Positions 2,620 to 4,116 of a stretch of 4,411 nt of DNA are shown one piece after another. The notes beneath the pieces are model-generated. The model had not been told where the DNA came from and did not search any database. It was given only the letters and a program-made list of their open reading frames with translations. The DNA lies in the NCBI RefSeq assembly GCF_003334385.1, contig NZ_QOWN01000086.1. One strand, given 5' to 3'. Numbering within the stretch: position 1 is the first letter of the stretch; each line of letters opens with the position of its first letter. The DNA is from Escherichia coli. GTDB lineage: Bacteria > Pseudomonadota > Gammaproteobacteria > Enterobacterales > Enterobacteriaceae. A program made the translations under genes and the position numbers.

Positions 2620-3233
2620 AGATAAATTCATTGTGTGTTATTAATGTATCTTTTATTGTTATTGATTTTTTTTTGCGATTAATAAAATATAATTTAGAAT
2701 ATTGCATGGAAATATAATATTGTGTATTTTGGAGCACTAAAAACACATCCAGCTAATGTTGTGACATATAAAAGTCATTGAGGTGATTCTTATCTCTTGT
2801 TTGGTTGTTTCTAAGCGAGAGTAAATGTCAAAAATATTCTTGTGGGTAATAGGTAAGTAAACATAACCTTTTGATAATTAGGGGGTGACTGCTTTTTTAT
2901 GAAACGTTACTTAGGAAACGCGTTTATCATCGATAGAAAAAAGTATTGTATAATATACATCTTCTCCTTTGCTTAGTCAATCAATGTGGAGTTTCCAGTA
3001 GGGATATGGAGAATACGACATCTTCTATGATTATTTGGTTTCATCATTGATTTTAAAATTAATTTTCATTTCAATGTTTTATTAAGAAAAGAAGAACGAA
3101 CGGGGGGATTATCAACATAATAAATCATTAATAAATATTGGTTATTCCTATATACATACTTGCGATATGCAACTATTGTGCGCCCATATTGTCATGAGTA
3201 AGTTTACTGTCATCTTATATAAACACATCGGCT
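2620..3233 (+). promoter_or_regulatory. ~600 bp very AT-rich non-coding region upstream of the AraC-family regulator; probable promoter/long leader and nucleoid-protein (H-NS-type) silencing region
   Basis: Abrupt drop to visibly very low GC from ~2620; no ORF with a credible start longer than 25 codons; a perfect TATAAT hexamer at 2949-2954 and a T9 run at 2666-2674. No promoter position can be assigned confidently in DNA this AT-rich. Long AT-rich upstream regions are typical of Rns/PerA/AggR-type regulator genes. Confidence 0.35.
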
Positions 3234-4067
3234 ATGCATGAGATAAAAGTGAAAAATTCAGTCTCTGATGTTATTGAAAACAAAAGAACGAATGTTATTT
3301 ATTTGAAAAAAATTCGCTTTTGCAATTGTGTTTTAATATATTTAAAAAACGCAACAGGTAAAATACAACAAAATGGCGAGATAAGTAAAATAATACCTAT
3401 GAATTCTTTTATTTATATAGAAAAAAATTCTTCATTAAGTGTTAAGTTGAATAACACTGGGGGAACAGTATCTTATGAAATTTATCATATTGATAGTGGC
3501 ATGTTAAAAAATGTGTACAAAGTAATAAAGCCTCTATTTGATGAAGTTAAATCTTATCCTGCTTGCGCTCAGAAAATATTCATTCATGAAGCGCAGCAAG
3601 TTGAAATTGATGTTTTCAAGCTATTGGTATCATCAAAAGATAGCAATATCCGTCAAATATATAAAGTTGCTTACATTCTTTCTAAATTTCCCAACATTGA
3701 TAAACTTATGCTTTCTATCGAAAAGTCTATTAAAATAAGTTTTACAGAAAAAGTGAAAAACATTATTGAAACAGACATGTCAAAACAATGGCGTCTTTGT
3801 CATCTCAGTGACAAATTATTTATGTCGGAGGTAAATATAAGAAAAAAACTAGAAAAAGAAAACATCACATTTAATAATTTACTACTTGATTTAAGGATGA
3901 ACTTTTCCGCCAGACTTCTCAATACTACCGAAATGCATGTTAGCAACATAGCCAAGAAATCAGGTTATTCTAATGTATCTTATTTTATAAAGGTTTTTAA
4001 AGACTACTTCGGGGTTACTCCAAGACAATATAATCTCAAAATCCGTGGGAGAACGATGTGCCCGTAG
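3234..4067 (+). CDS. AraC/XylS-family transcriptional activator of the Rns/CfaD/AggR/PerA virulence-regulator subfamily (277 aa)
   Basis: Intact ORF, first ATG after an in-frame TAA at 3219-3221. The C-terminal ~90 residues (approx. 3759-4031) hold two HTH motifs: ...SKQWRLCHLSDKLFMSEVNIRKKLEKENITFNNLLLDLRMNFSARLL... and ...NIAKKSGYSNVSYFIKVFKDYFGVTPRQY. These align with my recollection of Rns/AggR (…ITIRKRLESE..TFNQILMQ.RM…SYFIR.F.KH.G.TPKQF) and PerA (…FMSDSCLRKQLNKENLTFKKIMLDIKM…SYFIKVFKEYYNTTPKKY). The N-terminal domain is not identical to any of these as I recall them. Very low GC and AAA/AAT/ATA-rich codon usage indicate foreign origin. No convincing Shine-Dalgarno before the ATG; an in-frame GTG at 3249 is an alternative start. 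Confidence 0.9.
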   Translation: MHEIKVKNSVSDVIENKRTNVIYLKKIRFCNCVLIYLKNATGKIQQNGEISKIIPMNSFIYIEKNSSLSVKLNNTGGTVSYEIYHIDSGMLKNVYKVIKPLFDEVKSYPACAQKIFIHEAQQVEIDVFKLLVSSKDSNIRQIYKVAYILSKFPNIDKLMLSIEKSIKISFTEKVKNIIETDMSKQWRLCHLSDKLFMSEVNIRKKLEKENITFNNLLLDLRMNFSARLLNTTEMHVSNIAKKSGYSNVSYFIKVFKDYFGVTPRQYNLKIRGRTMCP

Positions 4068-4116
4068 TGTTTCTTATCAACATCTGAGTAAATTCATATC
4101 ACTAGATTTATTACTA

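What the first reader, a model, noticed from the sequence alone, without database searches (positions are those of the whole stretch)
2620..4116. Compositional island whose edges coincide with IS ends
GC content drops sharply from roughly half to visibly very low at ~2620, just after the rve-transposase remnant stop (2585-2587), and returns to ~50% exactly at the GTAAGCG IS66-type terminus at 4117. The ~1.5 kb AT-rich block therefore looks like a discrete cargo segment carried or delimited by IS elements.
Basis: seen in the sequence. Interest (0 to 1): 0.4.

Follow-up and report, generated by a model that had tools for sequence, protein, structure and literature searches.

The report
AT-rich virulence-regulator gene between IS ends
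The low-GC block is real and is bounded on both sides by true insertion-sequence ends, but it is simply an uncharacterised Rns/AggR-type AraC regulator gene with its own AT-rich upstream region, left standing between IS debris in an E. coli adhesin island, which is the usual layout for this class of gene.

Summary
GC is 0.29 over window 2605-4116 and 0.49-0.50 on both sides. Maximum-likelihood change points (2615, 4120) fall 11 and 4 bp from two IS termini defined independently by homology. These are the degenerate right inverted repeat of an IS3-family (IS407-group) remnant ending at 2604, and the GTAAGCG terminal repeat of an IS66-family remnant starting at 4117.

The block holds one gene, at 3234-4067 on the + strand. 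It encodes a 277-aa full-length Rns/CsvR/ToxT/AggR/VirF-class AraC activator, about 31% identical to AggR. Upstream lie 629 bp of AT-rich non-coding DNA, and 49 bp follow the stop codon.

All 25 related loci retrieved (E. coli drafts and gut metagenomes) keep both junctions within a fixed mosaic. In the loci long enough to show it, that mosaic runs AT-rich chaperone-usher fimbrial operon, IS debris, this block, IS debris, AT-rich dispersin/Aat genes. The block has no terminal repeats or target duplications, and its two flanking IS belong to different families and are truncated. "Delimited by IS" is therefore supported, while "carried as cargo" is not.

aggR and virF show the same roughly 1 kb AT-rich island in about 50% GC surroundings. 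My verdict is an ordinary architecture and a new, unnamed member of a known regulator class, of low to moderate interest.

The parts
2605..4116 (.). AT-rich block (1512 bp, GC 0.292). It is native low-GC DNA lying between two IS termini.
   Evidence: GC profile; change-point model; both junctions conserved across related loci.
3234..4067 (+). Gene for a 277-aa AraC/XylS-family activator of the Rns/CsvR/ToxT/AggR/VirF class. An alternative GTG start gives a 272-aa product. GC is 0.293.
   Evidence: Pfam HTH_18 and HTH_AraC over residues 191-266. Full-length alignment to Rns structures, residues 21-271, E 4e-29, and also to CsvR and ToxT. NCBIfam best hits are HilD, HilC and GadX, all far below their cut-offs. 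31.5% identity to AggR and 30% to VirF by tblastn. The exact protein P0001 occurs on 155 contigs.
2605..3233 (+). 629-bp AT-rich non-coding upstream region (GC 0.296), the presumed promoter and regulatory region of the AraC gene. The likely H-NS target status is inferred.
   Evidence: No ORF over 34 aa lies wholly inside it. No Rfam match. No DNA relative in PLSDB. Promoter-like hits are not above the shuffle expectation. One natural variant, L007, deletes window 3160-3204.
4068..4116 (+). 49-bp AT-rich tail between the AraC stop codon and the IS66 terminus.
   Evidence: Read from the sequence; no terminator-like site.
2383..2604 (+). 3' remnant of an IS3-family (IS407-group) element. It carries the transposase C-terminus (stop at 2585-2587) and a degenerate right inverted repeat ending ...GCTGGTGACAGGCCA at 2604. 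This forms the left boundary.
4117..4352 (-). Terminal remnant of an IS66-family element. The terminal repeat GTAAGCGTTAACGG starts at 4117, and the transposase C-terminus ORF lies at 4147-4332 on the - strand. This forms the right boundary.
   Evidence: NF033517 at E 2.2e-8. blastn to ISEc23, ISEc47 and ISKox1 starting at or within 1-2 bp of window 4117. Alignment with pFORC43.
4353..4411 (+). Left end of an ISEc45 (IS110-family) copy that follows the IS66 remnant. Its transposase ATG is at 4396. It runs off the end of the window.
573..2382 (-). A seemingly full-length IS91-family element. It carries tnpA at 804-1787 (-) and a 115-aa ORF at 1945-2292 (-). It is part of the IS debris to the left of the block.
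   Evidence: NF033538 at E 1e-72; roughly 90% identity over 573-2382 in many plasmids.

Best explanation
Window 2605-4116 is a fragment of a horizontally acquired, AT-rich adhesin/colonisation island of E. coli. It carries the island's Rns/AggR-class AraC transcriptional activator together with its own long AT-rich regulatory region.

The sharp compositional edges exist because enterobacterial IS elements of about 50% GC inserted on either side of the gene: an IS3-family element on the left and an IS66-family element on the right. Further insertions by IS91 and ISEc45 later broke these up. Insertions and IS-mediated adjacent deletions removed or displaced the neighbouring AT-rich DNA, and selection kept the functional unit of promoter region plus gene.

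The regulator most likely activates the nearby chaperone-usher fimbrial operon and the dispersin(CexE/Aap-like)-aat genes, as Rns, AggR and RegA do for their regulons. Its own expression is probably silenced by H-NS on the AT-rich DNA.

Shown here: the composition, the two IS termini, the gene's family, and the fixed mosaic context. Inferred: the order of events, H-NS silencing, and the target genes.
For: - Composition and change points coincide with the IS termini defined by homology.
- The single gene is a full-length Rns-class AraC regulator.
- In the wider locus L002, GC is about 0.32 over the fimbrial operon, about 0.29 over this block and about 0.30 over dispersin/aatP. The IS debris between them is about 0.50.
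- The fimbrial segment is bracketed by IS630-family ends, and the dispersin promoter abuts an IS3-family end. All three AT-rich modules are therefore trimmed by IS termini.
- Both junctions are identical (0-1 mismatch) in 23 loci from isolates and metagenomes, and two further metagenome loci align across the window at over 99.9%. The IS content further to the right varies between loci (ISEc45 versus an IS3-family element).
- A 41%-identical relative sits directly next to a lower-GC fimbrial operon with no IS between them.
- aggR and virF show the same AT-rich island of about 1 kb in about 50% GC surroundings, and virF lies next to IS1.
- The dispersin gene has a WWWWWWWTATC site 21 nt upstream of TATAGT. 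That matches the AggR rule of a site 21-23 bp upstream of the -10 hexamer (PMC7781526).
- H-NS-bound AT-rich DNA is a documented transposition hotspot (PMC11335895, abstract).
Against: - No IS-free ancestral version of this locus was found, so the order of events (insertion into a once-contiguous AT-rich island) is inferred rather than observed.
- Both IS are truncated at their far ends, so target-site duplications cannot be checked.
- No AggR-type site with proper spacing was found upstream of the AraC gene itself.
- The WWWWWWWTATC motif is not enriched overall in the locus (7 found against 4.3 expected).
- The fimbrial operon has only a chaperone, an usher and one subunit gene, and may be degenerate. 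PMC5382810 calls a possibly related NCTC 86 system non-functional.
- H-NS binding was not tested. The H-NS nucleation motif is not enriched.
Confidence: 0.75

Rival explanations
1. The block is passenger DNA mobilised by the adjacent IS91-family element through one-ended rolling-circle transposition. Replication would start at the oriIS end (left, about 573, next to CTTG at 557-560) and run through tnpA. It would fail to stop at terIS (about 2382) and carry the IS3 remnant plus the AraC block to a new site.
For: A seemingly full-length IS91-family copy lies 220 bp to the left of the block, with its tnpA 5' end (the terIS side) facing the block. The assignment of the ends follows from established knowledge of the IS91/ISCR mechanism, namely oriIS downstream of tnpA and a GTTC/CTTG target. 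That knowledge is recalled, not tested here.
Against: In every locus long enough to show it, the DNA to the left of IS91 (an IS256 fragment, an IS630 fragment and the fimbrial operon) is also identical. No [IS91-AraC] unit has been seen moving on its own. IS91 is separated from the block by an unrelated IS3 remnant. Nothing marks a surrogate termination site at 4116.
Confidence: 0.07
2. The block is the cargo of a former composite or compound transposon. Its flanking IS copies have since decayed or been replaced, so the IS ends reflect how the gene arrived in this replicon.
For: Intact IS termini face the block on both sides. The neighbouring fimbrial segment is flanked by inverted copies of a single IS630-family fragment, which looks like a composite transposon.
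Against: The two elements flanking the AraC block belong to different families (IS3 and IS66) and cannot cooperate in transposition. There are no flanking direct repeats. No second context was found for the block.
Confidence: 0.08
3. The block is a decaying relic. On this reading the AraC gene is no longer functional or no longer has targets, and the IS-bounded block simply has not yet been deleted.
For: The island is heavily eroded by at least seven IS families. The fimbrial operon looks minimal. One variant has lost 45 bp just upstream of the start codon. The NCTC 86 paper regards a possibly related CU system as non-functional (PMC5382810).
Against: The ORF is intact and nearly invariant: the cluster members aligned differ at only three positions, and it occurs across more than 200 contigs from isolates and metagenomes. 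It is full length relative to Rns. The 629-bp upstream region is conserved. Complete aat operons and a dispersin gene with an activator-type promoter co-occur with it.
Confidence: 0.1

Closest known systems
aggR on pAA plasmids of enteroaggregative E. coli
   Same: It is an AraC-class activator of similar length. The gene sits in an island of about 1 kb at 27-34% GC within about 50% GC surroundings (L034). It belongs to a regulon of chaperone-usher fimbriae plus dispersin plus the Aat exporter. An AggR-type WWWWWWWTATC site with 21-nt spacing is present at the dispersin-like gene here.
   Different: It is only 31.5% identical. The fimbriae here are of the Lpf/Fim-like gamma type rather than AAF. 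The dispersin-like gene is directly upstream of aatP. From recall, that matches the ETEC and Citrobacter layout rather than that of EAEC 042. No autoregulatory AggR-type site was found upstream of the gene. No function has been tested.
Rns/CfaD and CsvR of enterotoxigenic E. coli
   Same: These are the best sequence matches among solved structures. The alignment covers the N-terminal domain and both HTH motifs (E 4e-29 and 2e-27). Rns controls pili and CexE, a dispersin homologue exported by Aat (PMC7344145).
   Different: Identity is low. No enterotoxin or CFA/CS pilus genes appear in the loci seen. From a recalled Rns numbering, the residues said to contact the fatty-acid ligand (H20, R75) align with C30 and H85 here. 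This was not tested further.
virF on the Shigella invasion plasmid
   Same: It is an AT-rich (29-35% GC) AraC regulator island next to IS elements on a mosaic virulence replicon (L035). Identity is 30% over 88% of the length.
   Different: VirF heads a type III secretion cascade, not a fimbriae/dispersin regulon.
RegA of Citrobacter rodentium
   Same: It is a Rns-like activator of a CexE/dispersin homologue in a non-EAEC enteric bacterium (PMC7344145). Its further control of the kfc fimbriae and the aat genes is recalled, not read here.
   Different: Any orthology is untested.
ROD17 of E. coli NCTC 86 (Escherich's strain)
   Same: The paper describes a chromosomal island with a dispersin-like gene, a degenerate chaperone-usher system, Aat genes and many transposases (PMC5382810). 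One metagenome locus here, L021, also places the mosaic in a chromosome, next to cobUST.
   Different: Identity with the present locus was not verified. The paper does not mention an AraC regulator. The block is absent from the 5,426 complete RefSeq E. coli genomes searched.

Membership tests
AraC/XylS family, Rns/AggR/VirF/ToxT virulence-activator subgroup | C-terminal DNA-binding domain with two helix-turn-helix motifs (Pfam HTH_18 / HTH_AraC). | tested here: met
   PF12833 at E 2.8e-14 (residues 191-266) and PF00165 at E 3e-9.
AraC/XylS family, Rns/AggR/VirF/ToxT virulence-activator subgroup | Full-length similarity to subgroup members, including the N-terminal domain, at a length of about 260-280 aa. 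| tested here: met
   phmmer alignment of residues 21-271 to Rns residues 11-263 (E 4e-29), and also to CsvR (E 2e-27) and ToxT (E 2e-14).
AraC/XylS family, Rns/AggR/VirF/ToxT virulence-activator subgroup | An AT-rich gene linked to adhesin or virulence genes that it activates. | tested here: inconclusive
   The AT-richness and the linkage to chaperone-usher fimbriae and dispersin/aat are shown. Activation is only inferred, from an AggR-type site at the dispersin promoter.
AggR, Rns, VirF or HilD themselves (named equivalogs) | A score above the curated NCBIfam cut-off, or high identity to the named protein. | tested here: not met
   The best NCBIfam hit is HilD at 107 bits against a cut-off of 354. 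Identity is 31.5% to AggR and 30% to VirF. The nearest other protein cluster is 48% identical.
Composite transposon or IS-borne cargo module | Two copies of the same IS, or compatible ends, flanking the cargo. | tested here: not met
   An IS3-family remnant lies on the left and an IS66-family remnant on the right.
Composite transposon or IS-borne cargo module | Target-site duplications or terminal repeats at the borders of the unit. | tested here: not met
   No flanking direct repeats or terminal inverted repeats of the block were found. Duplications made by the IS elements themselves cannot be tested, because both IS are truncated.
Composite transposon or IS-borne cargo module | The same unit found in more than one genomic context. 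| tested here: not met
   25 loci from isolates and metagenomes all carry the same two junctions in one fixed arrangement. There are no copies in PLSDB or in complete E. coli genomes.
H-NS-silenced xenogeneic DNA | H-NS occupancy and derepression in an hns mutant. | not testable with these tools
   Only the compositional prerequisite (29% GC) is shown. The nucleation motif TCGATAAATT is not enriched.

The most novel reading that the evidence does not exclude
The 277-aa protein is the master activator of a previously undescribed colonisation regulon in E. coli lineages that are neither EAEC nor ETEC. The regulon would comprise a gamma-type chaperone-usher fimbria plus a CexE/dispersin coat protein and its Aat exporter. 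Such lineages circulate in human guts and possibly include commensals such as Escherich's NCTC 86. On this reading the protein is a functional analogue of AggR, Rns or RegA that current pathotype PCR schemes miss.
Probability: 0.4. Interest if true: 0.4.

Novelty: new member of a known kind. Interest (0 to 1): 0.2.

Why it matters
The compositional island is a textbook signature: an AT-rich, horizontally acquired virulence-regulator gene surrounded by IS debris, as seen for aggR and virF. It teaches nothing new about IS biology.

Its modest value lies in the gene. This is an intact, highly conserved and unnamed Rns/AggR-class activator, at most 48% identical to anything else found. It is always linked to a fimbrial operon and, in the loci that extend far enough, to a dispersin/Aat system. 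It occurs in more than 200 E. coli draft and gut-metagenome contigs, yet is absent from PLSDB and from 5,426 complete E. coli genomes. If it is functional, it would mark an overlooked adhesin/dispersin regulon and could serve as a typing marker.

Tried and rejected
- DNA searches with the block against PLSDB in distant mode found only a 77-nt patch in other AraC genes. A megablast search against complete E. coli genomes found nothing. No alternative context could be obtained from those collections.
- The first metagenome scan used a 35-mer that turned out to span a polymorphic site, and it found nothing. The second scan, with a conserved 35-mer, found two contigs in the same context.
- The contexts of the distant homologues P0002, P0003 and P0006 (40-48% identity) are not orthologous loci. 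The usher of L030 is only 21% identical. They could not reveal the IS-free ancestor.
- The sigma-70 promoter scan of the block did not exceed the shuffle expectation, and no terminator was found.
- The Rfam search found nothing.
- No AggR-type site (WWWWWWWTATC) occurs upstream of the AraC gene, and the relaxed matches lack a properly spaced -10 element on the gene's strand.
- The H-NS nucleation motif is not enriched.
- Literature searches for a name for this regulator (RegR/RegA, AggR homologue, AggR-like) found none. One search failed for lack of a free slot.
- I considered and rejected the idea that the 63-aa ORF at 2555-2746 (-) is a gene. It straddles the IS/block junction and has no support.

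Full report
**Observation.** The window's GC content is 0.45-0.58 from about 700 to 2600, falls to 0.25-0.33 from 2600 to 4000, and returns to 0.49-0.51 after 4100. A three-segment likelihood model puts the change points at 2615 and 4120, with a gain of 89.8 nats over a single segment. GC is 0.498 for 1-2604, 0.292 for 2605-4116 and 0.488 for 4117-4411. The compositional island is therefore real and far beyond chance.

**Edges.** On the right, blastn homology to IS66-family elements (ISEc23, ISEc47, ISKox1) begins at or within 1-2 bp of window 4117, at GTAAGCGTTAACGG. The ORF at 4147-4332 (-) is the C-terminus of an IS66 transposase (NF033517).

On the left, the ORF ending at TGA 2585-2587 matches the last residues of IS3-family transposases and is about 87% identical at DNA level to annotated IS3-family transposase genes. 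An intact relative in CP057892 has inverted repeats TGACCTGCTCCCCGT... and ...ACTGGGGGCAGGTCA. Aligned with it, the window's copy ends ...GCTGGTGACAGGCCA at 2604, after which homology stops.

Both edges are thus true IS termini, at 2604/2605 and 4116/4117. They lie 11 and 4 bp from the compositional change points.

**Content of the block.** There is one gene, at 3234-4067 (+), encoding a 277-aa protein.
- It has the AraC double-HTH domain (PF12833, PF00165).
- It aligns over its full length with solved Rns structures (residues 21-271, E 4e-29), with CsvR and with ToxT.
- It scores far below the cut-off of every named NCBIfam equivalog; the best is HilD at 107 bits against 354.
- It is 31.5% identical to AggR and 30% to VirF.
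- The nearest other protein cluster is 48% identical.

Upstream lie 629 bp of AT-rich DNA with no credible ORF, no Rfam match and no DNA relative in PLSDB. Downstream, only 49 bp separate the stop codon from the IS66 end. The block has no terminal inverted repeats or flanking direct repeats.

**Context and distribution.** The exact protein occurs on 155 contigs, and a 272-aa annotation of the same gene on 70 more. The sources are E. coli draft genomes and human gut metagenomes. The block is absent from PLSDB and from 5,426 complete RefSeq E. coli genomes.

In 23 retrieved loci both junction 41-mers are present with 0-1 mismatch, 1510-1512 bp apart. One locus carries a 45-bp deletion at 3160-3204. 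Two further metagenome contigs align with the window at over 99.9%. In the longest locus, L002, the order is as follows.
- An AT-rich chaperone-usher fimbrial operon (GC about 0.32).
- IS630, IS256, IS91 and IS3 debris (about 0.50).
- This block (0.29).
- IS66, ISEc45, ISL3, IS4 and IS3 debris (about 0.50).
- An AT-rich dispersin/CexE-like gene followed by aatP and the rest of the aat genes (about 0.30).

The fimbrial segment is bracketed by inverted IS630-family fragments. The dispersin promoter abuts an IS3-family end. Every AT-rich module is thus cut out by IS termini.

What follows the IS66 remnant differs between loci: ISEc45 in most, and an IS3-family end at the same position in L010, L014 and L018. 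One locus puts the whole mosaic next to cobU-cobS-cobT, which indicates a chromosomal location.

**Interpretation.** The block is best read as the regulator module of an AT-rich, horizontally acquired adhesin island that IS elements have repeatedly invaded and fragmented. It is not a cargo unit that IS elements carry.
- The flanking IS are of different families and are truncated.
- The block has never been seen in a second context.
- The same IS-trimmed pattern holds for its neighbouring modules.
- A 41%-identical relative lies directly beside a lower-GC fimbrial operon without any IS.
- The classic relatives aggR (pAA of O104:H4) and virF (S. boydii pINV) show the same island of about 1 kb at 27-35% GC in about 50% GC surroundings, and virF is adjacent to IS1.
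- H-NS-bound AT-rich DNA is a documented transposition hotspot (PMC11335895, abstract). This offers a mechanism for the IS pile-up, but H-NS binding here is inferred only.

**Likely function.** By analogy with Rns, AggR and RegA, which activate pili and CexE/dispersin (PMC7344145), the protein probably activates the linked fimbrial and dispersin/aat genes. One piece of direct sequence support exists. The dispersin-like gene has ATTAATTTATC 21 nt upstream of TATAGT. This matches the published AggR rule of WWWWWWWTATC 21-23 bp upstream of the -10 element (PMC7781526). The motif is not enriched across the locus as a whole (7 found against 4.3 expected). No such site with proper spacing precedes the AraC gene itself. 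This remains a lead rather than a test.

**Rivals.**
- IS91 one-ended rolling-circle mobilisation. A seemingly full-length IS91-family copy lies at about 573-2382, with its terIS side facing the block. This is mechanistically possible but has no comparative support.
- A decayed composite transposon. This is contradicted by the mismatched IS families.
- A functionless relic. This is argued against by the intact and nearly invariant ORF, by its wide occurrence, and by the complete aat operons that co-occur with it.

**Comparison with the literature.** I found no paper that names this regulator. The NCTC 86 genome paper describes a chromosomal island (ROD17) with a dispersin-like gene, a degenerate chaperone-usher system, Aat genes and transposases (PMC5382810). 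That may be the same island, but I could not verify it.

**Verdict.** The architecture is ordinary for this class of gene. The gene itself is a new, uncharacterised member of the Rns/AggR/VirF class. Interest is low to moderate.

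Noticed in passing
window 1-91 and L002 2158-2248 / 6768-6858: The AT-rich chaperone-usher fimbrial segment (L002, about 2400-6660) is bracketed by inverted copies, 97.8% identical, of the 3' end of an IS630-family transposase gene. This is a layout like that of a composite transposon.
   Followed up: partly
L002 18820-18943: The dispersin/CexE-like gene has an AggR-type site, ATTAATTTATC, 21 nt upstream of TATAGT. An IS3-family (IS629-like) end lies about 14 nt upstream of that site. The adjacent poly-G tract (12 versus 10) and poly-T tract (12 versus 11) differ in length between loci L001/L002 and L018. The poly-T tract lies in the spacer between the site and the -10 element.
   Followed up: partly
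window 3160-3204 (locus L007): One metagenome variant has lost 45 bp immediately upstream of the AraC start codon, between short ACT microhomologies. The deletion may remove the promoter or the 5' UTR.
   Followed up: partly
window 4352/4353; L014 about 9104: The IS66 remnant ends at the same base in all loci. It is followed by ISEc45 (IS110 family) in most loci, but by an IS3-family left end (TGAACCGCCCCGGG...) in L010, L014 and L018. The IS66-end/ISEc45 junction also occurs at about 94% identity in pAA-type and other plasmids, including those of strain 55989 and pFORC43. This suggests a preferred ISEc45 target within IS66-family ends.
   Followed up: partly
L021 12288-16834: In one JGI metagenome contig the whole mosaic lies next to cobU-cobS-cobT and an L,D-transpeptidase gene. 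The island is therefore chromosomal in at least some strains, not plasmid-borne.
   Followed up: no
window 573-2382: A seemingly full-length IS91-family element carries a 115-aa ORF (1945-2292, - strand) upstream of tnpA. CTTG at 557-560 abuts the presumed oriIS end. The 79-aa 'rve remnant' ORF (2348-2587) is a chimera that starts inside the IS91 end and continues into the IS3 fragment.
   Followed up: partly
window 460-572: A short fragment encodes ...KSLKTPEDLSQFDRLLKKISVEAALNAEMMHHLDR*. From recall, it resembles the N-terminal part of IS256-family transposases. It is another piece of IS debris between the IS630 fragment and IS91.
   Followed up: no
L026/L027 8001-8831: The 47%-identical homologue P0003 in other E. 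coli sits between a YadA-like trimeric autotransporter adhesin gene and a SPATE-type serine-protease autotransporter gene, with about 3 kb of uncalled DNA upstream. It is another adhesin-linked member of this regulator clade.
   Followed up: no
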